A stretch of DNA of 25,872 bases from a phage, in NCBI GenBank assembly GCA_020318295.1, contig GCA_020318295.1_4859.2. The stretch is one strand, 5' to 3'. The notes under the pieces were generated by a model. The model was given only the letters and a program-made list of their open reading frames with translations. It had not been told where the DNA came from and did not search any database. This document shows positions 851 to 20,620 of the stretch, piece by piece; position 1 is the stretch's first letter, and each line of letters opens with the position of its first letter. A program made the translations under genes and the position numbers.

Positions 851-878
851 GGTTCACTGAGATAACATCTATCTGAAA
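851..878 (-). promoter_or_regulatory. Conserved promoter-like motif P1 (minus strand TTTCAGATAGATGTTATCTCAGTGAACC)
   Basis: One of four near-identical copies of the core TTTCAGATAGATGTTAT; sits just after a terminator and about 80 nt upstream of the ATG at 796. Confidence 0.45.
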
Positions 879-923: not shown

Positions 924-3900
924 TTAGTTAGTTTCGAGTGGATCGTCTGGAATAGTAAACGTTATATCAAGTGAAGCTGTTGTGTGGTCGGGGATTGCCA
1001 AGTCGTGATAGATATCATGCCCTGCACCATGTTCTTTATAGAGGAGATACAAGCCGATTGCACGCATCGCTTCCCCGGTATAAAACCCAAAGGCTTGACC
1101 GTTATCCGTAGTAGGGTTTGCCCACGGAGACCAGGCACCGTTAATGGCTTTTCCTGGAATGTCTGTGACGGTGAAGTTGTCACCCATCTCTTTCATCCCC
1201 ATATCCATAATACGGCTCAACCCTTCCACTGTACAGCCAGCCATTGCTGCATAAGCGCTGCCTGCTATCCAGAGCGCACACATATGTGCTGTGAAATCGT
1301 TCTCTACCCACACCGGTTTATTTGGTGCCGTAGGGAATTCATTCGGCGTGTGGTTGTCAAAGCGGTCTAAGAACCCTACGAGCCACTTAGCCCAATTTTC
1401 AACGTACACTACTAGCTCAGGTGGAACCTCTTTACCACGCACAACTAATTCGTACCAACAACGCGCAGCGGCGTTATACGCGCGCGGCTGATAACCTGCC
1501 CACGGATGTCCATCGCCCCAATGGAACGTTGTCCACGTATCTGCCGGGCCGTAAGAGTAGTTATCCCAACGGTTCCAAATATACGCCGCACAACCTGGAC
1601 CTAACTCACCTATCTGCTTTTGGTAGTTGGTTTGTGAATCGTGCATAAACCGAATCTGATTTAAGAGCCAGTCTTTGTAGCGATCATCGGTGTGTATGGT
1701 GTACATAAACGGATACTGATAGCCAGGATACGGCATCCCGTGCCATGCACCTAGCTGATACGTTCCTTCCGAATAAATGTTCGAGAACGGTATCGTTCCT
1801 GGGCAATACGCGAGCAAGTCAAGACGGTAATCTTTTATCGTACAATCGCCCACTTTACCCGTAAATGCAGAACCTCCCCGAATTACAATACGGAACGTTA
1901 ATGTCCAGCCGTCGTCTGCATTAAACAGTGGCGGAACATCGTTTACGCAATACCAGCTAAAGTGCGCATTCTCCACAGCCGAATCGGGCAGTATGGTTAC
2001 CTGATCGATAGTTGTATAGTTTGGCGCAGCCGGTTTTGGTTCGACGTCGGTATCGTGGTCAGGTTGATAGCCCGAGAGTGTTGCGTCTTCAGGGCGAATA
2101 ATAACCTGTTTCCATTCCCCGTTAGTCGCGGGCAACATCCACCACCAACGCCACTTGTCGGTATCTTCGAAACGGAAGTTGAAATCAGCATCGGCACGAT
2201 AGACAATTGACTGTGGGGGTGCAACACCGGCATCGGTTAACCAGAAACCGATAATGAAACCCGCATCGTCGTTCGGGAATAACGCTTCTACGATTGTGCC
2301 TGAACGACCATCGTAAATGTTGTTCTCAAACTTCTCCTGCCATGTACACCCACCGTAGTCCGAACATGCTCGCGCATCGGCAATGATGTAATCTTCGCCG
2401 TTGGCCGGATTGGTCATTCTGGCCAGATGCCCTAAATCGATGTCATGCTGTTCTACTTCCATCGATGTTGATCCCGGAAGCGTACAGCCGTACCAGTTTA
2501 CTTCTTCAGTATCCGCTTTGACGGGGTTAATATCCACCATCACTTTACACGCAAGTGCATCACCGTTGTCGCAAACACCGCCATACGTCACACGTAACTT
2601 CGATTGACTGTTTATCCTGAAACGCACGGCTTGCTGTTCCATAAAGTTCTGCACAGCTTCCTCAGAACGGAACACAATATCACCATTTTCATCACGACTG
2701 TAAGCGACCTCAACGGTGCTGGGGTATTTATAGTCGTACGAGATACCATCTGTAAATGGTGTTTCGGCTAGCTTAGAACGTCGGAAAAACTTGTCCTTCG
2801 CATCGATATACGTGTATTCGTGCGCTGTATAGAACACAGAGTCTAGTGCGGCTTTATAGCGCGCTTCACCTGTGATACGCCAGAGCAGATAGCAGGCATC
2901 AATAAACCACACTTCCGCATCTGCCGCGTTACCCATCTGGTTAACAGACCCTTTTAACGGGGTATGAACCGGGCGGTTGTGCCACGGCTCATTGCGGTCA
3001 AACAAATACCCGCCGTGCTCTACAGGTACCTGGGAAGCGTAGTTAATCAAATATACACCGTTAATACTGGTGTCCTTTAATTGTACGGTTCCTTTCTGGG
3101 CATCAGGTAAACCGGATTCGATGACATCGCCGTCTTTAACCTTCTCACCCGTCCACACAACAAACCAGTCAGGTTCGTACCGCGGACCTTTCGAGGTAGA
3201 ACCGCCCCACATTGGTGTATATCCGGTTGGGTCGTTTAACATCCTGTTCCAGTCCACCCACGCTTTTACATCGTAAGGTTTCTCTGGATTGGTGATTAAG
3301 TAATCAGGGACTTTAGACCAGTCAATTAACCCGTTTTCCGATTCCTTAATTTTCTGTACGTCAGCATTAACCGCACCCCAGGTAGGATGGCCACGGTGCG
3401 CAGAAAAGAAATTGTTCAGATACTCACCAAAGAATGGTGCGCCTTGGGGTATCTGGCAACGCCCGTTCGTAAACGTTACCGGTACACACTTGTAACCACC
3501 GTGGGTTGGCTCGGTCGGATGCACTGGATAGTCTGCCAGCACCGGTTCTTTACCGTTAACTAGCCAGTTACAAATCCATCGTTGCGGTGAATCGGGAATG
3601 GCCTGACCTGCGTAATAGTAGGTAGCGTACGCTTCCCATGCATGAATCGCCGCATCTAACCACATCTGGTTTTTGGTAGCAATGTACATGTGACAGTAGC
3701 CAATAATCAGCAACGATTGACCTTCTGTGGTGGCGTCACCATTAGGTTGATACACTGCCATGGAGTCAGCAATGAAATGCCGGTTATTAGATAGCACCCC
3801 TTCTGGGTTAATCAGATAATGGTCATTGTGGGCGTCGTTAGTTAAGCCGGTGTTTCGACGAACAAAGTCCTGATGTCCGTAAGCCAGCGACATCGCGTAG

Positions 3901-7666: not shown

Positions 7667-9427
7667 TTACGCGTTCTCTGTCCAAGCGTGACCACGCAGC
7701 GTTTCACCGCGTATGTCGTATTGCTTATATTTCGAAGAGTCGTAAGACGCAGGTAAGAAGATCTGATGAACAATATCCGCCAGTCGACGAGCGCCAAGGT
7801 TCTCTACAGCATTGGCTTCCATTGTTTTCTCAGCGATGAACGTATAGGTGTCCATGTCGTACTGCGTTTCCACCCCTTCGGTTTTCAACAACTTAATCAT
7901 GCCGTGGAACTCACTGTTATCCAACTTACAGATAGCAATCAGTGCCTCGGTATCCAGCGAAGACATTTTCGCTCTTAACGGAAAACGTCCCTGGAGTTCT
8001 GCCATGAGTTTAGAAACAGGCGCTTGAGCAAACGACCCAGCAGCGACAAAAAGCACATTGGTTGTGTCAACGCCATGATAAATACCCCCTTCAACCATTT
8101 TCAACAAGCTACGCTGCACACCACTACGGGATACACGTGCAGTGTGTTGCGTGTCAACCTCGATAAGTTTGTCAAACTCATCCAAGAACACCACCGCAAA
8201 GTTCTCAACGAAATCATGTCCATTACAGTTGGGTAGTTTCTTGAGGTCTTTGCGGCTGACTGTTTCTTTTTCTGGCACAACTGTTTCAGGTATCTCGTAA
8301 TGCCAAAGCCGTTCATCGGCGTATTTGGTAAATTCTGGAGAACCTTCGAACACGTCATCCCACCAACGACACCACTTCTCAGGATCTTCCAAACGAGACA
8401 ACATGCGAATAGTAAACGCTGCAGCGTCGATCGGGAGCCAATTAATGCCCGCCGGCTCGACGTCCTCGTCGTCGCCGTTAAACGTGTCGAACAAATCGTA
8501 GAAATCTGAGCCATCGGCACACGAGAGTGGCAGGTTATTTGACATCAGCGCTTGACCGGCATCAACGTATAAGTCAATCTGTTCGCCTAAAGCCATCAGC
8601 GACATAAACTCACCCATATACCCAATCGTGCCCGGTATATCACCATCCATTAACTTATCGACTTGACTTTCAAGTTCTTCACTATTCAACAGTTCAGAAA
8701 TTGACGAGACACCGAGCAGACTCCTTGCGATTTCCGAAATCTTATCTATCCATTCCTGCACAGTACGGCCACCGAGCGTAACAGAATAGATATCGAAGTC
8801 TTCGTAGGTTAAATTGTGTTGACGGCAATAGCCAACCATAAACGCGCGAAGACAATAGATGTCTTGGTATTCTTCGTACAACTCCTTCGGATCGAGTATA
8901 CCCTGACGCCGTAATAGTTCGGTGTGGTCACGTTTAGCCTGATACCGCAGCTGGCGCTCAGCTGCGCGCTCGTCTAGTTCGCGCTCAACTTCCTTACGGG
9001 ATTCACGCTCCCACTCTTCACGAGTAAGACGATTACCGTCTACTTCCGTCTCGACACGTCGTTTGGTACGCAGTTCGATATACCAGTCGGGCAATTCGAC
9101 AGAACGCGCTAAGTCGGCTAAGTCCTTGCCGATTGATGTAACTTCCCGGCCTACGTAGCCTGATTCTGTAAACGCGGTCATGTCGAGTTCCAGCACAGGT
9201 AAACCGAATTTAGTTTTCAGTACCCGCATCAACGCCGTTTTACCCGTGCCTGTTGGACCTTCTATTAAAAGGTTCTGTTTGTGGACCGACATACGGTCCA
9301 CTACGTTAAGTTTATTGGCACGGTATCGATTACGTAGCGCAATCGCCAGCATTTTCTTTGCCTGCGTTTGTCCATATACGTAACGATCGAATAGCGCCAC
9401 TATCTCAACCGGCGTGAGGTTTTCCAT
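7667..9427 (-). CDS. HslU-like AAA+ ATPase (ClpY-type unfoldase) with a greatly expanded insertion domain (586 aa)
   Basis: N-terminus TPVEIVALFDRYVYGQTQAKKMLAIALRNRYR and Walker A GPTGTGKT, TESGYVGREV, Walker B VVFLDEFDK, SRSGVQRSLLKMVEGG and sensor-2 ENLGARRL all follow the HslU pattern from memory. About 340 aa separate Walker A and B. Confidence 0.85.
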   Translation of the reverse strand: MENLTPVEIVALFDRYVYGQTQAKKMLAIALRNRYRANKLNVVDRMSVHKQNLLIEGPTGTGKTALMRVLKTKFGLPVLELDMTAFTESGYVGREVTSIGKDLADLARSVELPDWYIELRTKRRVETEVDGNRLTREEWERESRKEVERELDERAAERQLRYQAKRDHTELLRRQGILDPKELYEEYQDIYCLRAFMVGYCRQHNLTYEDFDIYSVTLGGRTVQEWIDKISEIARSLLGVSSISELLNSEELESQVDKLMDGDIPGTIGYMGEFMSLMALGEQIDLYVDAGQALMSNNLPLSCADGSDFYDLFDTFNGDDEDVEPAGINWLPIDAAAFTIRMLSRLEDPEKWCRWWDDVFEGSPEFTKYADERLWHYEIPETVVPEKETVSRKDLKKLPNCNGHDFVENFAVVFLDEFDKLIEVDTQHTARVSRSGVQRSLLKMVEGGIYHGVDTTNVLFVAAGSFAQAPVSKLMAELQGRFPLRAKMSSLDTEALIAICKLDNSEFHGMIKLLKTEGVETQYDMDTYTFIAEKTMEANAVENLGARRLADIVHQIFLPASYDSSKYKQYDIRGETLRGHAWTENA

Positions 9428-11682: not shown

Positions 11683-11710
11683 GGTTCAGTAAAATAACAT
11701 CTATCTGAAA
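11683..11710 (-). promoter_or_regulatory. Conserved promoter-like motif P2 (minus strand TTTCAGATAGATGTTATTTTACTGAACC)
   Basis: Core identical to P1; 53 nt upstream of the ATG at 11657. Confidence 0.45.
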
Positions 11711-15672: not shown

Positions 15673-16674
15673 TTAACATCCTCTCATGCCAGATTGAAAC
15701 ATATCACTGATAGTCAGCCTGGTTGTAGTCTCCACCGGAATGCTAGGTTCTTCTTTCAGCACTCGATCGGCGCGGTTCCCATTCACCCGTTTCCAGCTAA
15801 TAAGTTCAGGATCGCGTTTCAACGTTAGTGTACGCAGTACCTGCTTGCAACGTAAGATGTTGCCGTACAGGTGATTTGCTGGATTATTATCAGCAGCTGT
15901 TTCAATATAGACTTGGTCGGAATGACGTTGTGCGAAATCGAATAGCGCGCCCATTAGCCGGCGGCCAATGCCACGTTTACGGTGTGTGGGTGCAACGGTT
16001 AAACCAGAAAGTTCAACGACGCCTGGTGTAACCAAGCGCATCTGGGCAATACCGACGATATCATGGCCGTCTCGCCAAATTGCAGTCTCCACATTAGCGT
16101 GCTGAATTCTTGCTATTACTGTTTCTGCTAACGGACCAATGTGTGTATAGTAGCCACGCATATCGTATTCTAGCTCTTCGCAAATTGCACCGCTAATCAA
16201 ATTCAGGATAACGTCTTTATCTTCCTTGGTAAGTTCTGCGTATGCATCACCAGAAATAATCTTGATTTCTGATGCGGTGATTACTTTGTCAAACAGTTTA
16301 GAATGACATGCCCAAACGATATCTGAAAGAACAAACCCTTTTTCGACCAGTTTTTGTTCAACATCGTCAGTAGGTGCTGGGCACGACATATATTCGAATC
16401 CGGTATGGTCGAGCACAAGGGCCAAACCAACTTTATCGAATGCCCCAGGTACAAACTCCTCAAAATAGTGACAGGTTAGTGTAGGGTCACCGTGTCGATA
16501 GGTGGCCACTAAATAACCCTCCCAGGTTTCTTTATTCTTCACCACGTAAACAGAATAAGTCTCGTCCTTTAGAAACTCTTTTAGGCGGCGTGCTCGTACA
16601 GTATCGCTGCCGACGTTATTTCGGAACTCGGCAGTGCGGATGCTGGTGCGAAACAATTTAGCCACAGTTTTCAT
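15673..16674 (-). CDS. Two-domain protein with C-terminal GNAT acetyltransferase domain (334 aa)
   Basis: Canonical acetyl-CoA motif LTVAPTHRKRGIGRRLMGALFDFAQ in the C-terminal half. The track ORF starts with TTG at 16797 and overlaps the upstream gene and terminator; ATG at 16674 (MKTVAKLF...) was chosen. Confidence 0.7.
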   Translation of the reverse strand: MKTVAKLFRTSIRTAEFRNNVGSDTVRARRLKEFLKDETYSVYVVKNKETWEGYLVATYRHGDPTLTCHYFEEFVPGAFDKVGLALVLDHTGFEYMSCPAPTDDVEQKLVEKGFVLSDIVWACHSKLFDKVITASEIKIISGDAYAELTKEDKDVILNLISGAICEELEYDMRGYYTHIGPLAETVIARIQHANVETAIWRDGHDIVGIAQMRLVTPGVVELSGLTVAPTHRKRGIGRRLMGALFDFAQRHSDQVYIETAADNNPANHLYGNILRCKQVLRTLTLKRDPELISWKRVNGNRADRVLKEEPSIPVETTTRLTISDMFQSGMRGC

Positions 16675-16730
16675 TGTAATGCCCTCAAAAGGTATTGCTG
16701 TCACAACATGAGGATAATGCGTAAAAAGAC

Positions 16731-16758
16731 AAAAAATTAAGGGGTCCGAAGACCCCTT
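16731..16758 (-). terminator. Intrinsic terminator
   Basis: Perfect stem aaggggtc/gacccctt with a 4-nt loop (TTCG on the minus strand), followed by TTTTTT. Confidence 0.75.
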
Positions 16759-16763
16759 AATGA

Positions 16764-17420
16764 TTACAGTTCCGGTTTGGAGACAAGCGTCGTCCAAGTT
16801 TCGGAATGTTTGACACTAACGTGTGCTAGGCGATTCACCATGAAGGCAAATTTGTCCATATGTTTCTGCACTTCGTTATCAGTCAGATTGCCAGCGATAA
16901 CTTTACCGTCTTTGGTCAGCACGATATAGCCGTGGTTGTTGTCTACCGTAGTGAACGCCACATCAATCGTAACCGGGTAAAGTTTCACCAGCGTCGGCAG
17001 AATGTGGCCAACACGATCGGCCATACCCGCAAGCTGGCCACAAAGGTCGGCTTTATCCTGCATGAACAAACGCAACATCGCTACTGCAAACACCGGATAG
17101 ATGTTTTCGATTTGCGTGTCGTAACGAGACAGGCCGATAACTTCATCACCGCGGGTTAGCACCATGTTGTTCAGATGCGCGCCTTTATAGATGGTAAAGC
17201 GTACGTCGCTACCAAGGTTAACCGAAACGATTTCCTGACCAAGGTCAATCGGAAATTCACGTTCGATGTGAATCGTTTTCAGACGCTCACTGATCGGTAC
17301 AATCACATCCGGCTTCGGAATGCTAGATGTACGCGTGGATTCAGTGGTACGCGTTTTTGTGGATTTAACCGCACTGCTTGCCATTGAATCTTTTGCTACA
17401 GTTTTAGGGGCCTTCGCCAT
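16764..17420 (-). CDS. Hypothetical protein (218 aa), basic Ser/Thr-rich N-terminus
   Basis: ATG at 17420 with AAGGAG 6 nt upstream. Confidence 0.6.
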   Translation of the reverse strand: MAKAPKTVAKDSMASSAVKSTKTRTTESTRTSSIPKPDVIVPISERLKTIHIEREFPIDLGQEIVSVNLGSDVRFTIYKGAHLNNMVLTRGDEVIGLSRYDTQIENIYPVFAVAMLRLFMQDKADLCGQLAGMADRVGHILPTLVKLYPVTIDVAFTTVDNNHGYIVLTKDGKVIAGNLTDNEVQKHMDKFAFMVNRLAHVSVKHSETWTTLVSKPEL

Positions 17421-17446
17421 GGTATACTCCTTAAGGTTTACACTAG

Positions 17447-17833
17447 TTAATCCCAGAAAGCTGCTTCTGGAAAGTCGTGTTCAAATGCCCGACGGTCATT
17501 CTCTACACGGTTTAAATGTGTCGGTAAAGACACGCAGTTATTACAGATACAAAGTTCTTTATCCCCTTGACTGGGGTCAAAGTCGTACCATTTCCATTCA
17601 ACGGTATCTCGTTTCGGGAAGGTACCTTTGCAGTCGTCGCAGACCACTTCTTCAGCTGCAATTTCAGCCTGCAGTTTTTCCCAGCAGTTCTCGCACATGT
17701 AGTACGTTTCGCGGCCCCATGGGTCGCACTCTGCCGTATAGCGCGGGGCTATAGAGCCCACTTTAAGATGTTTACATCGATCATCCTCTTCCGTCATCAC
17801 GCGACGGGTGATACCATTTACAAACCAATTCAT
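17447..17833 (-). CDS. Cys-rich putative zinc-binding protein (128 aa)
   Basis: Several CxxC pairs (CENC, CDDC, CICNNC); ATG at 17833 with GGGAG upstream. Confidence 0.6.
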   Translation of the reverse strand: MNWFVNGITRRVMTEEDDRCKHLKVGSIAPRYTAECDPWGRETYYMCENCWEKLQAEIAAEEVVCDDCKGTFPKRDTVEWKWYDFDPSQGDKELCICNNCVSLPTHLNRVENDRRAFEHDFPEAAFWD

Positions 17834-17844
17834 ACGTTTGCTCC

Positions 17845-18210
17845 CTACATTACTGCAGAAGGTTTACGTGCCATGACTTTAAGTCCTGTTTCTCGTACCC
17901 GGATAGGACAGTTGTTCATGTAATCGATGCATGATTCAATTTTAAAGCTATGACGACATTTACCGTTGATAGAACGGTAGACGATTTCGTAATTCAGGCG
18001 CAGTGTATCAGCAACCCGCATCAATGTTTCGATAGTCACGGCCTTCTCACGTTCATTTTTAATCGCAGATATTTGTGACGGTGAGCAGCCTACTAATAAC
18101 GCAATGTCTTTCTGCGTAACGTCCTTCGCAGTGACACGAGTAATAATGTAAGAAAGACGAACCAAAAACGCTTTCTTTGCCAACACAACGGTTTGATGTT
18201 TAAAACGCAT
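17845..18210 (-). CDS. XRE-type helix-turn-helix transcriptional regulator (121 aa)
   Basis: TQKDIALLVGCSPSQISAIKNE fits the HTH_XRE pattern; AAGGAG 8 nt upstream; first gene downstream of promoter motif P3. Confidence 0.6.
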   Translation of the reverse strand: MRFKHQTVVLAKKAFLVRLSYIITRVTAKDVTQKDIALLVGCSPSQISAIKNEREKAVTIETLMRVADTLRLNYEIVYRSINGKCRHSFKIESCIDYMNNCPIRVRETGLKVMARKPSAVM

Positions 18211-18260
18211 TAGAATACTCCTTTAGATTAATAGTCGATTAGAGAGTTTAGTAGTAACTC

Positions 18261-18285
18261 TCACCTAAGTAATATATATCTGAAA
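18261..18285 (-). promoter_or_regulatory. Conserved promoter-like motif P3 (minus strand TTTCAGATATATATTACTTAGGTGAG)
   Basis: Variant of the P1/P2 core; sits between a terminator and the HTH regulator gene, 75 nt upstream of its ATG. Confidence 0.4.
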
Positions 18286-18329
18286 TTTAGTGGACTGGAA
18301 GCAAAAAGCATAAGACTGTTCCGATCTGT

Positions 18330-18366
18330 AAAAAAGACAATACCCTCTTACCCGAAGGTAAGAGGG
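18330..18366 (-). terminator. Intrinsic terminator
   Basis: Perfect 10-bp stem ccctcttacc/ggtaagaggg (18343-18352 and 18357-18366) with a 4-nt loop (TTCG on the minus strand), followed by a T-run. Confidence 0.75.
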
Positions 18367-18372
18367 GTACAA

Positions 18373-18996
18373 CTAACCTGCCAGAATACGTTCAACGATA
18401 CGCGCGGCTTGTAACGCTATATCGTCGTCAGCCGTAACACGCATCAGCGGGAACTTATCGCCGCCATCTGTGGTGATGTGGAAAGCAAAACGGTAGTGGT
18501 CGCGTAACGCGTCCCAATCAGTCTGTGAGCGCAGATACTTCGCTGTCAGTACCTCATCATCCCAGTTCTTGCCCTGGGCCTCTGCGCGCTTCTTAAAGCG
18601 TTCTGTGGCGGTTTCGTAGGATACATCGGTTGCCACGTAAAGTTTCGGTGCGTTAATGTGGTCTAATACCCGTGAACGGAAAACTTCCCCTTTACCATCG
18701 ACGCCCTGGTAGACAATAGTCGATTGACAAAAACGGTCAAAAATAACGACATCGTGCTCTGGTACAACGAAATCCATCGTGTATTGGAAATCCAGACACA
18801 TCGCTTTAGCAATGCGTTCGTTAGAAGCGTGCTGGATAACCAGAGAACGTGCACTAATACCGGCTTCAGTGGTATTCGTCGGGTGATTGACGATGATGAC
18901 ATTAACGCCAGCGGAGCGCAACATCGCTTGAATCATTTTCGCGAGTGTTGATTTGCCAGAAAAGTCCGGACCATCCAGCGCCACTGAGTTTAACAT
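18373..18996 (-). CDS. Thymidylate-kinase-like P-loop nucleotide kinase (207 aa)
   Basis: VALDGPDFSGKST P-loop and FDRFCQSTIVYQG (the DR-x and STxxYQG region of dTMP kinases) near the N-terminus. Start moved from 19098 to ATG 18996, because the longer N-terminus would be encoded by the terminator A-tract. Confidence 0.65.
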   Translation of the reverse strand: MLNSVALDGPDFSGKSTLAKMIQAMLRSAGVNVIIVNHPTNTTEAGISARSLVIQHASNERIAKAMCLDFQYTMDFVVPEHDVVIFDRFCQSTIVYQGVDGKGEVFRSRVLDHINAPKLYVATDVSYETATERFKKRAEAQGKNWDDEVLTAKYLRSQTDWDALRDHYRFAFHITTDGGDKFPLMRVTADDDIALQAARIVERILAG

Positions 18997-19058
18997 TTTA
19001 TTCTTCCCCAAAAGTTTAATTAATTGTAGTGGTGTCACAATATAGCGACCAAACGTAA

Positions 19059-19094
19059 AGAAAAAAATAAAACAGGCACCCCGAAGGATGCCTG
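19059..19094 (-). terminator. Intrinsic terminator
   Basis: Stem caggca/tgcctg around a loop containing CCTTCGG on the minus strand, followed by TTTTATTTTTTTC. Confidence 0.6.
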
Positions 19095-19107
19095 ACATTA
19101 GATGTTA

Positions 19108-19866
19108 TTACTCGATAGCCTTGCGGTTCTTCATTTCTGGTGTCCAGGTGTGCTCAATCCATGCTTCGATGACCGGCTTGATGCCCGGACTTTTGAAGAA
19201 TGCATTTAATGACGGCCATTCCCCTAACGCGTACTTGTTAGTGAAATTGAGCGACATTACACTGAAGCCTTCGCGTTTGTTAAACAACGCAGAAGGGGCC
19301 AAGGAATAAGACAACATGGCCTGCGGTGTATCTGATTCAGGACGCAGCAGTGTCATGCGGCGGGTGACACGCAGTTCAATATCGTTGAAGTTAGCCCGGA
19401 GGTCTTCTTTAAATTTGACACTGCGGAAGAAACGATTTCCTGTTTCGGATGCTTTATTTACCAATCGCTCGGTTTGCATCACGTCTTTAAAATACGCATT
19501 GATGCATTCTTCAATGAAGACATAGCGTGGTGCAGCTTCACGCAGTGCTTCTAAGTCGAACTCTTTCCACGCGGGGATGAGTTCAGGCTTACGGGCGATG
19601 TGTTTAAAGAACATCCTGGCTGAGACTTCACGCAGTGCTTTCAGCAACCCGCGAATAACATCTTCCCGCGTTGCGTTAGTTGCGAAGAACTCAGTCGTGC
19701 CATGTACAACGGTACCGCCTGTTTTAGCGCTGATGAGCTTATGCTCTATCATAATCGGCATCCCGCCCTTACCGATCATCTCTTCGTTATACAAAAATAC
19801 ATAACGATATTCGCCACAGGCAGTGGGGACGGACAGGAACTCTTTCTTCGTAGTATTAACAGTCAT
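19108..19866 (-). CDS. Hypothetical protein (252 aa)
   Basis: Monocistronic unit with promoter motif P4, a long structured leader and its own terminator. Confidence 0.6.
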   Translation of the reverse strand: MTVNTTKKEFLSVPTACGEYRYVFLYNEEMIGKGGMPIMIEHKLISAKTGGTVVHGTTEFFATNATREDVIRGLLKALREVSARMFFKHIARKPELIPAWKEFDLEALREAAPRYVFIEECINAYFKDVMQTERLVNKASETGNRFFRSVKFKEDLRANFNDIELRVTRRMTLLRPESDTPQAMLSYSLAPSALFNKREGFSVMSLNFTNKYALGEWPSLNAFFKSPGIKPVIEAWIEHTWTPEMKNRKAIE

Positions 19867-19957
19867 GGTATTTCTCTCTTAGTTTAAGTTGGTGAGTTTT
19901 AACCGACTCACAACGGCTTCTAGCATATGCTAAGGATGAAACGTAAATTTTGTACGT

Positions 19958-19984
19958 CTCCCTAAAATAATATCTATCCGAAAA
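19958..19984 (-). promoter_or_regulatory. Conserved promoter-like motif P4 (minus strand TTTTCGGATAGATATTATTTTAGGGAGACG)
   Basis: Variant core; the downstream TTTTAGGGAGA resembles the initiation region of single-subunit phage RNAP promoters (from memory). Confidence 0.4.
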
Positions 19985-20017
19985 ACAATAGAGTCGACCC
20001 ACTCCCGAAGGAGTGGG
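19981..20017 (-). terminator. Putative intrinsic terminator (weak U-run)
   Basis: Stem cccactcc/ggagtggg with a 4-nt loop (TTCG on the minus strand); the T-run is separated from the stem by 7 nt. Confidence 0.4.
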
Positions 20018-20023
20018 TATAAC

Positions 20024-20620
20024 TCACTGATGATCAACTTTCGGTTCAGACCACTCGGGGACTGGCGGAAGTTTAATATCAGTTGCGTATTCTGATGGCA
20101 CCGCGAGTGTGGTAAAGCCACGACACGCCAAATAGTGCTGCATTCGTGCTGCCTGATTCGGCGTGTCGGTGATCACCAAATGGGTCTTACGCATAAGTGC
20201 GAGTACCGCCTGTCCTTCTTGCGGCGTAGGTGTGCGTGGATGCTTACTGATAATGCTCATTAACCAGTCACGCGCAATACCACCTACATTACAACTGGCC
20301 TCACGCAAATCAACCACGCCTTCACCTTCACCCACCACCTGTTTGGTGGAGTTAGGATAAAAGCGATACGGTGCACGACGACGCTTACGACGTACTTCCG
20401 AAATAGCACGTCCGAGTATCATCTGTGCATGTTTAACGCTACAGCCTTCCACCGGTCTACGCATGTTCGTTACTAAACAGGCAATCTCTAGTACCTTACC
20501 GATTTGATAACGACGCTTAAAGCCATGACGACTTATGTCTACGTATTCTGGAAGATTGCCGTTTTTATTGATGTTTGCAACCGTAATCAAAAACAGCGAA
20601 TCGAGAATCATCTCAGACAT
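20024..20620 (-). CDS. Hypothetical protein (198 aa), Arg-rich central region
   Basis: The track start is GTG at 20623; the adjacent ATG at 20620 has GGGGAG 6-7 nt upstream. Confidence 0.6.
   Translation of the reverse strand: MSEMILDSLFLITVANINKNGNLPEYVDISRHGFKRRYQIGKVLEIACLVTNMRRPVEGCSVKHAQMILGRAISEVRRKRRRAPYRFYPNSTKQVVGEGEGVVDLREASCNVGGIARDWLMSIISKHPRTPTPQEGQAVLALMRKTHLVITDTPNQAARMQHYLACRGFTTLAVPSEYATDIKLPPVPEWSEPKVDHQ

What the first reader, a model, noticed from the sequence alone, without database searches (positions are those of the whole stretch)
17447..18210. Self-contained regulator operon: XRE-HTH protein, Cys-rich Zn-ribbon-like protein and a 218-aa unknown
The three-gene unit has its own promoter motif (P3) and is closed by strong terminators on both sides. 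An HTH regulator paired with a multi-CxxC protein may be a transcriptional switch or host-takeover factor. It is the only clear DNA-binding regulator in the window.
Basis: partly seen in the sequence, partly recalled or inferred. Interest (0 to 1): 0.4.

Follow-up and report, generated by a model that had tools for sequence, protein, structure and literature searches.

The report
Early regulator operon of SPN3US-like phage
This is a real three-gene early operon of a known giant, nucleus-forming Salmonella phage; it encodes an ordinary XRE-type DNA-binding protein, an uncharacterised acidic zinc-type protein found only in giant phages, and a lineage-specific orphan, and nothing shows that the first two work as a pair.

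Summary
The window is a Seoulvirus (SPN3US-like) jumbo phage of the Chimalliviridae, 97-98% identical to SPN3US. The finding covers SPN3US gp101, gp102 and gp103, all on the minus strand.

The operon anatomy is confirmed:
- It is flanked by two UUCG-loop hairpin terminators (-18.3 and -17.2 kcal/mol).
- It has its own copy of a 14-nt AT-rich motif. The window holds 4 copies against 0.04 expected. SPN3US holds 22, all co-oriented with the genes, 21 of them intergenic, and one directly upstream of the non-virion RNA polymerase genes.
- By analogy with phiKZ, this is the virion-RNA-polymerase early promoter class.

The three proteins:
- gp101 is a basic XRE helix-turn-helix protein. It is the only one Pfam finds in the window, and public records already annotate it as a putative transcriptional regulator.
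- gp102 belongs to an acidic, unnamed jumbo-phage family with invariant Cys and His positions. It has no Pfam match and no solved-fold match.
- gp103 is a fast-evolving orphan.

The idea that the HTH and the Cys-rich protein are partners is not supported. Each occurs without the other in other jumbo phages, and unrelated ORFs sit between them in relatives. The suggested palindrome target is at chance frequency and is not conserved.

The coordinates given omit the third gene. This is mostly ordinary, so interest is low to moderate.

The parts
18343..18366 (-). Intrinsic-terminator hairpin (UUCG tetraloop followed by a T-run) that ends the upstream thymidylate kinase gene and forms the upstream boundary of the unit.
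   Evidence: (-18.3 kcal/mol, z = -4.4). The hairpin is conserved in SPAsTU, pEa_SNUABM_29, Asesino-like, phiEaH2 and Caitlin.
18269..18282 (-). Core of the AT-rich promoter motif, CAGATATATATTAC (extended form TTTCAGATATATATTACTTAGGTGAG). Inferred to be a virion-RNA-polymerase early promoter.
   Evidence: 4 copies in the window against 0.04 expected; 22 copies in SPN3US, all on the coding strand, 21 intergenic, and one directly upstream of nvRNAP genes gp34-gp35. The motif class is described for jumbo phages in PMC7598289 and PMC8244752.
18242..18262 (-). Leader stem-loop (GAGAGTT-N7-AACTCTC) at or near the predicted 5' end of the mRNA.
   Evidence: (-7.8 kcal/mol, z = -3.1). The arms differ in relatives and in paralogous leaders but stay complementary.
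18230..18240 (-). AATCGACTATT leader box, just upstream of the Shine-Dalgarno sequence (AAGGAG at 18218-18223).
   Evidence: Conserved at this locus in five relatives and present in at least 8 other early-type leaders of SPN3US. Its function is unknown.
17845..18210 (-). gp101 homologue: a 121-aa basic (pI 10.0) XRE-family helix-turn-helix protein. The HTH domain spans roughly residues 20-77 (about nt 17980-18150). The C-terminal 50 aa are of unresolved structure.
   Evidence: HTH_3 E = 2e-7, HTH_37, HTH_26; phrog_7126; residues 5-72 at pLDDT about 77-89; nearest folds are HigA2, 2o38, C.Esp1396I and HipB; 100% aa identity across phages that differ by 7% in nt.
17447..17833 (-). gp102 homologue: a 128-aa acidic (pI 4.7) protein with two predicted zinc-knuckle modules. 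Invariant residues are C20, C47, C65, C68, C97, C100 and H106; H22 and C50 are nearly invariant.
16764..17420 (-). gp103 homologue: a 218-aa orphan with a basic Ser/Thr/Lys-rich N-terminal 45 residues followed by a presumably globular remainder of about 170 residues (not modelled).
   Evidence: phrog_32024, unknown function; only Seoulvirus homologues; weak similarity to the positional equivalent in Caitlin, E = 0.04.
16736..16761 (-). Intrinsic-terminator hairpin (UUCG tetraloop followed by a T-run) that closes the unit 3 nt after the gp103 stop codon.
   Evidence: -17.2 kcal/mol, z = -4.9.

Best explanation
This is an accessory early operon of a nucleus-forming jumbo phage (Seoulvirus, Chimalliviridae).

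Inferred transcription: the injected virion RNA polymerase starts transcription a few bases downstream of the AT-rich motif at 18269-18282(-). The mRNA begins with a short protective stem-loop, covers gp101, gp102 and gp103, and ends at the hairpin at 16736-16761.

gp101 is a basic XRE-type helix-turn-helix protein that binds double-stranded DNA sequence-specifically, probably as a dimer. Proteins are excluded from the phage nucleus unless specifically imported, and the only XRE protein of a chimallivirus localised so far sits on the host nucleoid. So gp101's most likely target is host DNA in the cytoplasm, where it would repress or re-tune host genes early in infection.

gp102 is an independent, acidic protein stabilised by two zinc sites. 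It more probably binds a protein than DNA, and it is not an obligate partner of gp101. gp103 is a rapidly evolving lineage-specific protein of unknown role.

Shown here: the gene structure, the motif statistics, the terminators, the HTH family assignment, the conservation patterns and the lack of conserved pairing.

Inferred: early timing, DNA binding, host target and zinc binding.
For: - Identity of the window.
- Promoter class: 4 copies against 0.04 expected in the window. SPN3US has 22 co-oriented copies, 21 of them intergenic, 46-281 nt before the next ORF, and one immediately upstream of gp34-gp35. gp35 is named as the nvRNAP beta' subunit in PMC5105663; the gp34-gp35 numbering was derived here by counting from gp42 and gp37. 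phiKZ has 28-32 AT-rich early promoters used by the virion polymerase, and these include the ones driving the nvRNAP genes (PMC7598289, PMC8244752, PMC13282480).
- Terminators.
- HTH: Pfam above the gathering score. The fold model resembles XRE antitoxin and controller proteins. pI is 10. The protein is 100% identical across phages whose DNA differs by 7%, which indicates strong purifying selection.
- It is the only HTH domain Pfam finds in the window and the only 'HTH DNA binding protein' in the RefSeq annotation of the whole SPN3US genome.
- Host-DNA precedent: RAY gp094, an XRE-superfamily accessory protein, co-localises with the host chromosome outside the phage nucleus (PMC10299810).
- Asesino, which has a 59%-identical gp101 orthologue, does not degrade host DNA (PMC11724907).
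- gp102 is independent of gp101.
Against: - No SPN3US transcriptome or transcription-start map was found, so 'early' rests on analogy with phiKZ and AR9.
- RAY gp094 is not an orthologue of gp101: the pairwise alignment is out of register. The localisation precedent therefore holds only at superfamily level.
- No operator-like palindrome was found near the operon. The only inverted repeats in the 162-nt control region are the terminator and the leader hairpin.
- The C-terminal 50 residues of gp101 are modelled with low confidence, so the dimerisation mode is unknown.
- It is unknown whether SPN3US leaves the host chromosome intact.
- Whether jumbo-phage RNA polymerases stop at these hairpins was not tested.
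Confidence: 0.4

Rival explanations
1. gp101 acts on phage DNA. It would be an early-made repressor that shuts off its own and other early promoters, or otherwise times the early-to-middle switch. It would bind in or just downstream of the early promoter cassettes, either in the early infection vesicle or after import into the phage nucleus.
For: - It is transcribed from an early-type promoter.
- XRE proteins of phages are classically repressors of phage promoters (established knowledge of the Cro/CI family).
- About half of the early motif copies contain the dyad AGATA-N5-TATCT.
- At least 8 early leaders, its own included, share an AATCGACTATT box that is conserved at this locus in relatives.
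- The mechanism of early shut-off in chimalliviruses is not known (PMC7598289).
Against: - The protein is an accessory gene restricted to some enterobacterial, Aeromonas and Klebsiella jumbo phages. It is absent from phiKZ-type phages that run the same temporal programme.
- Its own promoter belongs to the subclass that lacks the dyad.
- The AATCGACTATT box is not palindromic and could equally be a translation or RNA element.
- There is no evidence of import into the phage nucleus.
Confidence: 0.25
2. gp101 and gp102 are a functional pair: a 'split' zinc-module plus HTH regulator. This would be analogous to MqsA, where a zinc domain and an XRE HTH share one chain, or to an anti-repressor/repressor pair. 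The acidic zinc protein would bind the basic HTH protein and modulate its DNA binding.
For: - The two genes are adjacent and co-transcribed in Seoulvirus, the Asesino/phiEaH2 group and Machinavirus, down to about 33% protein identity.
- Their charges are opposite, pI 10.0 against 4.7.
- gp101 has an unstructured C-terminal 50 residues that might fold on a partner.
Against: - Each family occurs without the other in several jumbo-phage lineages.
- The one HTH found 2.6 kb from a metagenomic gp102 homologue is unrelated to gp101.
- Unrelated ORFs are inserted between the two genes in pEa_SNUABM_29 and the Asesino-like locus.
- The adjacency is explained by the conserved synteny of the whole tmk-to-Dam block.
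- There is no sequence similarity to MqsA or to anti-repressors.
Confidence: 0.12
3. gp101 is an antitoxin-like or anti-defence protein. It would be a phage copy of a HigA/HipB-type XRE antitoxin that neutralises a host toxin or represses a host defence locus triggered by infection.
For: - The nearest folds and profiles are antitoxin-type XRE proteins: HigA2 (7ewc), 2o38, HipB and HTH_37.
- Early expression fits a counter-defence role.
Against: - All these similarities are weak (Foldseek E about 0.02; NCBIfam scores far below cut-offs) and reflect the generic XRE fold.
- There is no toxin-like neighbour.
- PADLOC gives only generic HTH matches.
Confidence: 0.1

Closest known systems
Annotated orthologues: SPN3US gp101 (SPN3US_0101, 'putative transcriptional regulator' / 'HTH DNA binding protein'), gp102 and gp103 ('hypothetical protein'), and their counterparts in more than 40 Seoulvirus and Erwinia jumbo-phage records
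   Same: gp101 is 100% identical at the protein level; gp102 and gp103 are 97-98% identical. The neighbours are the same: tmk upstream, GNAT and Dam downstream.
   Different: Nothing of substance differs. The public records give only a predicted name, and no experiment on these three genes was found in the literature searched.
Erwinia phage RAY gp094, an XRE-superfamily accessory protein of a chimallivirus that localises on the host nucleoid (PMC10299810)
   Same: It is a small HTH_3 protein encoded in the accessory genome of a nucleus-forming jumbo phage. It is the only experimentally localised XRE protein of this virus family that was found.
   Different: It is not orthologous: the pairwise alignment is out of register and shows no true similarity beyond the superfamily. 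It is 96 aa and lacks the C-terminal extension. Its neighbourhood is different, with no gp102-like gene.
XRE-type antitoxins and controller proteins (M. tuberculosis HigA2 7ewc, XRE protein 2o38, HipB, C.Esp1396I)
   Same: They share the five-helix XRE fold with a long first helix. They are the best structural and profile neighbours of gp101 residues 5-75.
   Different: The similarity is weak. gp101 has no cognate toxin gene and no restriction enzyme gene or C-box nearby. It carries an extra C-terminal region of about 50 residues.
phiKZ/AR9-type virion-RNA-polymerase early promoters and early operons
   Same: A highly conserved AT-rich element of 10-14 nt, present in a few dozen co-oriented copies upstream of operons, including those for the non-virion polymerase (PMC7598289, PMC8244752, PMC13282480).
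   Different: The sequence of the element is phage-specific, and for SPN3US it has not been mapped experimentally. Here a subclass also carries a leader hairpin and an AATCGACTATT box.
Zinc ribbons and treble-clef zinc fingers (for example RPB12, DZR_2, the SprT C-terminal ribbon)
   Same: CxxC knuckles spaced as in zinc ribbons (C47xxC50-x14-C65xxC68). The only profile hits, all weak, are to such domains.

Membership tests
XRE / Cro-C1 helix-turn-helix family (Pfam HTH_3, PF01381) - gp101 | Profile match above the curated gathering score | tested here: met
   HTH_3 scores 31.4 bits against a cut-off of 23, E = 2e-7. HTH_37 (27.0 bits, cut-off 27) and HTH_26 (27 bits, cut-off 22) also reach their cut-offs.
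XRE / Cro-C1 helix-turn-helix family (Pfam HTH_3, PF01381) - gp101 | Compact helical bundle with the recognition helix-turn-helix as helices 2 and 3 | tested here: met
   The AlphaFold2 model has helices at 5-28, 33-40, 44-51 and 60-69 at pLDDT about 77-89. The top Foldseek hits are all XRE proteins (TM-score on the target 0.6-0.7), but their E-values of 0.02 or worse are not significant.
XRE / Cro-C1 helix-turn-helix family (Pfam HTH_3, PF01381) - gp101 | Sequence-specific binding of a dimer to an inverted-repeat operator | not testable with these tools
   No candidate operator was found. The only inverted repeats in the control region are the terminator and the leader hairpin. The 12-nt palindrome upstream of gp99 is at chance frequency and is not conserved.
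Type II toxin-antitoxin antitoxin (HigA / HipB / MqsA type) - gp101 | Adjacent, co-transcribed cognate toxin gene | tested here: not met
   The neighbours are thymidylate kinase and gp102. Neither these nor gp103 matches any toxin family in Pfam, NCBIfam or PADLOC.
Type II toxin-antitoxin antitoxin (HigA / HipB / MqsA type) - gp101 | For MqsA: a zinc-binding domain fused to the HTH in one polypeptide | tested here: not met
   gp101 gave no MqsA-family match among the Pfam hits listed at E <= 1. The Cys residues in its C-terminal part are not conserved in the Stratton, phiEaH2, Caitlin or Miami homologues.
Restriction-modification controller (C) protein - gp101 | Sits directly upstream of, and controls, a restriction endonuclease/methylase pair through a C-box palindrome | tested here: not met
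   No endonuclease gene is present. The only methylase, a D12-class Dam, lies four genes downstream beyond a terminator. No palindrome lies in the control region.
Zinc ribbon / zinc-finger proteins - gp102 | Four-ligand Cys/His sites built from CxxC knuckles, conserved across the family | tested here: met
   C20, C47, C65, C68, C97, C100 and H106 are invariant, and H22 and C50 are >= 90% conserved, in 59 diverse members. The predicted strands and helix starts place the knuckles as in zinc fingers. The assignment of ligands to two sites is an inference.
Zinc ribbon / zinc-finger proteins - gp102 | Significant match to a described zinc-ribbon family or solved fold | tested here: not met
Zinc ribbon / zinc-finger proteins - gp102 | Bound metal | not testable with these tools
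   This needs metal analysis of purified protein.
Jumbo-phage virion-RNA-polymerase early promoters | Over-represented, co-oriented, AT-rich element of about 10-14 nt upstream of operons | tested here: met
   22 copies against about 0.1 expected, all on the coding strand, 21 intergenic.
Jumbo-phage virion-RNA-polymerase early promoters | Drives the genes of the non-virion RNA polymerase | tested here: met
   The motif at SPN3US position 28968 lies 46 nt upstream of gp34-gp35. gp35 is the nvRNAP beta' subunit (PMC5105663).
Jumbo-phage virion-RNA-polymerase early promoters | Mapped transcription start and early, rifampicin-independent expression | not testable with these tools
   No SPN3US transcript map was found in the literature held.

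The most novel reading that the evidence does not exclude
gp102 would define a new two-zinc-module fold specific to jumbo phages. In the SPN3US/Erwinia lineage it would work with the XRE protein gp101 as a two-part regulator of the multisubunit phage RNA polymerases, for instance by shutting off virion-polymerase early promoters through the shared promoter and leader boxes. That would supply the missing factor for the early-to-middle switch of nucleus-forming phages.
Probability: 0.06. Interest if true: 0.65.

Novelty: new member of a known kind. Interest (0 to 1): 0.3.

Why it matters
How nucleus-forming jumbo phages time their gene expression, and what they do to a host chromosome they do not destroy, are open questions. 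Almost no phage-encoded DNA-binding regulators are known for them.

gp101 is the single recognisable HTH regulator of a 240-kb genome and is expressed from an early-type promoter, so it is a cheap and well-defined target for localisation, ChIP and knock-down experiments.

The gp102 family has about 230 sequence clusters, no name and no known fold. It is a small, well-predicted target for structural work.

None of this is surprising to a specialist. The gene is already annotated as a putative regulator, and the operon is non-core.

Tried and rejected
1. Palindrome TAGCATATGCTA (19921-19932) as the HTH operator. Rejected: it is single-copy, not conserved in SPAsTU, and 12-nt palindromes occur at chance frequency.
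2. Other shared intergenic words, AGTCCACTAA and AAATTTACGTTTCA. Each has only 2 copies in the genome, which is not informative.
3. Zinc site in the C-terminus of gp101 (C85, H87, C94, C101). Rejected: these residues are not conserved in the Stratton, phiEaH2, Caitlin or Miami homologues.
4. Domain fusions as a functional clue for gp102. Ten long family members have no Pfam domain. Two carry a large insertion between the two zinc modules, which shows only that the protein is modular.
6. Neighbourhoods of distant gp102 homologues contain no adjacent HTH. One HTH lies 2.6 kb away but is unrelated to gp101.
7. The search for related loci gave an error with the diverse alignment and returned only 5 loci with the narrow one.
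8. gp103 has no Pfam, NCBIfam or meaningful PADLOC match, and only near-identical homologues.
9. RNAalifold on the leader alignment failed because MAFFT misaligned the variable hairpin. The evidence for the hairpin is therefore the per-sequence folds and inspection by eye.
10. Rfam found nothing in 16500-20200 apart from one sub-threshold chance hit.
11. A sigma-70 promoter scan found fewer sites than in shuffles and none upstream of the operon. This fits a phage that uses its own polymerases.
12. The literature search found no experimental data on SPN3US gp101-gp103.
Full report
**What the window is.**
- The 1.7-kb region around the finding is 97-98% identical to Salmonella phage SPN3US and Proteus phage 7, and 92-97% identical to about 20 further Salmonella and Escherichia jumbo phages.
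- SPN3US belongs to the genus Seoulvirus, family Chimalliviridae, the nucleus-forming jumbo phages.
- All long ORFs of the window are on the minus strand.
- In the original SPN3US numbering, the three genes of the finding are gp101 ('putative transcriptional regulator'), gp102 and gp103 (both 'hypothetical protein').
- They lie between gp100 (thymidylate kinase) and gp104/gp105 (GNAT acetyltransferase, Dam methylase).

**Check of the observation.**
- The ORFs are at 17845-18210 (121 aa), 17447-17833 (128 aa, 9 Cys) and 16764-17420 (218 aa), all minus strand.
- The gaps between them are 11 and 26 nt, each with a Shine-Dalgarno sequence.
- The coordinates in the finding cover only the first two genes.
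- Two strong hairpin-plus-T-run terminators with UUCG loops bracket the unit. One is at 18343-18366 (-18.3 kcal/mol, z = -4.4). The other is at 16736-16761 (-17.2 kcal/mol, z = -4.9). No terminator-like site lies inside the unit.
- Between the upstream terminator and the first start codon lies the motif TTTCAGATATATATTACTTAGGTGAG.
- Its 14-nt core, as the pattern CAGATAKATRTTAY with at most 1 mismatch, occurs 4 times in the window, all on the minus strand and all intergenic, against 0.04 expected from dinucleotide shuffles.
- In the complete SPN3US genome, fetched, the core occurs 22 times. All copies are on the main coding strand, 21 are intergenic, and they lie 46-281 nt upstream of the next ORF. 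Simulated genomes give 0-1 copies.

**What the promoter motif is.**
- Jumbo phages with two multisubunit RNA polymerases carry a phage-specific, highly conserved AT-rich element of about 10 nt upstream of early operons. Wherever it was tested, it proved to be the early promoter used by the injected virion polymerase (PMC7598289).
- phiKZ has 28-32 such promoters, and they include those of the non-virion polymerase genes (PMC8244752, PMC13282480).
- The SPN3US motif fits this description in copy number, orientation and position.
- One copy lies 46 nt upstream of gp34-gp35. PMC5105663 names gp35 as the non-virion polymerase beta' subunit; the gp34-gp35 numbering was derived here by counting from gp42 and gp37.
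- A sigma-70 scan finds nothing upstream of the operon.
- I therefore read the operon as an early, virion-polymerase-driven unit. This is an inference by analogy, because no SPN3US transcript map was found.

The copy in front of gp101 belongs to a subclass, TATATATTACYTAGGTGAG. In this subclass the motif is followed by:
- a short leader stem-loop, here 18242-18262 (-7.8 kcal/mol), whose arms differ between paralogous copies and between relatives but remain complementary;
- an AATCGACTATT box just before the ribosome-binding site, shared by at least 8 leaders.

**gp101.**
- Pfam places residues 28-73 in HTH_3 (E = 2e-7, above the gathering score). HTH_37 and HTH_26 also reach their cut-offs.
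- PHROGs places it in phrog_7126, 'HTH DNA binding protein'.
- The AlphaFold2 model gives the N-terminal 72 residues as a helical XRE-type bundle at pLDDT about 77-89. The C-terminal 50 residues are unresolved.
- The nearest solved structures are antitoxin- and controller-type XRE proteins: HigA2, 2o38, HipB and C.Esp1396I. The scores reflect the generic fold only.
- The protein is basic, pI 10.0.
- It is 100% identical in phages whose DNA differs by about 7% in this region, which indicates strong constraint.
- Homologues occur in Seoulvirus, several Erwinia jumbo-phage genera, Klebsiella phage Miami and its relatives, and Aeromonas jumbo phages. They do not occur in phiKZ-type Pseudomonas phages. 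It is an accessory gene.
- Pfam finds no HTH or other transcription-factor domain in the other ORFs of the window. RefSeq annotates no other HTH protein in the entire SPN3US genome.

**gp102.**
- A profile search of 1.8 billion cluster representatives finds 230 family members at E <= 1e-3. All those inspected come from unnamed metagenomic contigs or jumbo phages.
- Among isolated phages, the family occurs in Seoulvirus, Erwinia jumbo phages, Ralstonia RSL2/RSF1, Vibrio pVa-21, Shewanella FishSpeaker and Bacillus AgentSmith, all with genomes of 200-250 kb.
- In 59 diverse members, C20, C47, C65, C68, C97, C100 and H106 are invariant. H22, C50 and the N-terminal MNW are nearly so.
- Two members carry a large insertion between C50 and C65. 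Together with the predicted secondary structure (mean pLDDT 84.8), this suggests two zinc-knuckle modules: C20/H22/C47/C50 and C65/C68/C97/C100. This assignment is an inference.
- The family is acidic, with a median pI of 4.7. That argues against direct DNA binding.

**gp103.**
- Homologues are confined to Seoulvirus. The closest divergent ones are about 33-39% identical, in SPAsTU and pEa_SNUABM_29.
- A protein of the same size, at the same position and with a similar MAKxP(K/R)T N-terminus exists in Erwinia phage Caitlin, but with only marginal similarity (E = 0.04).
- The first 45 residues are basic and rich in Ser, Thr and Lys. The remaining ~170 residues are presumably globular (not modelled) and match no family.

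**Is the HTH 'paired' with the Cys-rich protein?**
- The two genes are adjacent in Seoulvirus, the Asesino/phiEaH2 group and Machinavirus. There, however, the entire block from tmk to Dam is syntenic.
- Outside this clade the two families separate. RSL2, pVa-21 and two metagenomic contigs have gp102 homologues whose neighbours have no HTH domain.
- Klebsiella phage Miami has the gp101 homologue without a gp102-like neighbour, and the Aeromonas phages that carry a gp101 homologue do not appear among the gp102 hits.
- A metagenomic contig has an HTH gene 2.6 kb from its gp102 homologue, but that HTH is unrelated to gp101.
- Inside the clade the operon is plastic. An extra ORF precedes the HTH gene in SPAsTU and Caitlin. 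Another separates the HTH and Cys-rich genes in pEa_SNUABM_29 and the Asesino-like locus.

This is what shared ancestry of a gene block would give. It is not what an obligate two-component system would give.

**Where would gp101 act?**
- No operator-like palindrome is present in its control region. The only inverted repeats are the terminator and the leader hairpin.
It is also statistically unremarkable: about 65 distinct perfect 12-nt palindromes occur in the genome against about 59 expected.
- The only experimental precedent in this virus family is RAY gp094. It is an XRE-superfamily accessory protein whose GFP fusion coats the host nucleoid and stays outside the phage nucleus, which led its authors to suggest host gene regulation (PMC10299810).
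- I fetched RAY gp094. It is an HTH_3 protein but not an orthologue of gp101, so the precedent applies only at superfamily level.
- Asesino, which does carry a 59%-identical gp101 orthologue, leaves the host chromosome intact (PMC11724907).
- Because import into the phage nucleus is selective, a small non-core HTH protein most probably stays in the cytoplasm with the host DNA.
- The main rival is that gp101 represses phage early promoters or leaders. It is supported by the early promoter, by the AGATA-N5-TATCT dyad in about half of the promoter copies, and by the shared AATCGACTATT box. It is weakened by the absence of the gene from most chimalliviruses and by the lack of the dyad in its own promoter.

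**Verdict.**
The unit can now be described precisely as terminator, early-type promoter, leader hairpin, leader box, three genes and terminator.
- The regulator is a new but ordinary member of the XRE family, already annotated as such in public records.
- The Cys-rich protein belongs to an unnamed jumbo-phage family with conserved zinc-type ligands and no known fold. That is the least ordinary element, but nothing links it functionally to the HTH.
- Interest is low to moderate (0.3).

Noticed in passing
window 862-875, 11694-11707, 18269-18282, 19967-19980 (all minus strand); SPN3US genome (L008-L012), 22 sites: A genome-wide promoter cassette. The core is CAGATAKATRTTAY, usually preceded by an A-rich then T-rich stretch and often placed just after a UUCG-loop terminator. 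One copy sits directly upstream of the non-virion RNA polymerase genes gp34-gp35. About half of the copies contain the dyad AGATA-N5-TATCT. The rest form a TATATATTACYTAGGTGAG subclass.
   Followed up: yes
window 18230-18262 (-); SPN3US 57148, 65455, 94280, 114030, 167592, 223318, 224197 and others: The early-type leaders of the second subclass start with a stem-loop whose arms vary but stay complementary between copies and between related phages. They also share an AATCGACTATT(AAT) box about 5-10 nt (4-11 nt in the copies inspected) before the ribosome-binding site. This could be an mRNA-stability or translation element, or a protein-binding site. The repeated 'terminator-promoter-hairpin' cassettes recall the promoter-early stem-loops of T4-type phages (from memory, not tested).
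   Followed up: partly
window 7667-9427 (-): An intact 586-aa HslU/ClpB-like AAA+ ATPase gene (Pfam AAA_2 and AAA). It is present in SPLA3, phage 1252, MET_P1_082_240 and, more distantly, SPAsTU. In SPN3US, JN03, SPLA1a and the Escherichia phages EC001 and Lh1B (the listed part of the remaining hits) only about 20% of this region is left. The window is thus not collinear with SPN3US here; it is about 1.75 kb longer. The RAY homologue gp116 was reported to enter the phage nucleus (PMC10299810).
   Followed up: partly
window 19921-19932: The perfect 12-nt palindrome TAGCATATGCTA lies in the leader of the gp99 homologue, downstream of another early-type promoter copy. It is single-copy in the genome, is found only in SPN3US-type sequences, and is at chance frequency for a palindrome of this length.
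   Followed up: yes
L021 2139-2591 (SPAsTU), L006 1763-2065 (Caitlin), L022 2545-3000 (pEa_SNUABM_29), L013 about 2560-3000: Relatives carry extra small ORFs, with no Pfam match in the three that were scanned (the L013 ORF was not scanned), inserted either before the HTH gene or between the HTH and Cys-rich genes. In SPAsTU the AATCGAC-type box plus Shine-Dalgarno sequence is duplicated in front of both the inserted ORF and the HTH gene. This suggests that the leader module mediates gene insertion.
   Followed up: partly
L023 13992-14807 (Erwinia phage RAY gp93-gp95): RAY gp094, the host-nucleoid-binding XRE protein, is annotated 'plasmid antitoxin with HTH domain'. It starts 4 nt after a 100-aa ORF (gp93) that has no Pfam match. 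This layout resembles HigB-HigA modules. Whether gp93 is a toxin was not examined.
   Followed up: no
window 18997-19107 and 16672-16763 (-): The thymidylate kinase gene and the GNAT/Dam block downstream of the operon have no early-type motif in their upstream regions. They presumably depend on read-through or on a different (middle or late) promoter class that could not be recognised by sequence.
   Followed up: no
P0053, P0082 (metagenomic gp102-family members): Two family members have an insertion of about 170 residues between the first and second zinc modules. One member (P0052, 929 aa) carries the domain at its C-terminus after a long unannotated region. Many members have long acidic C-terminal tails.
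   Followed up: partly
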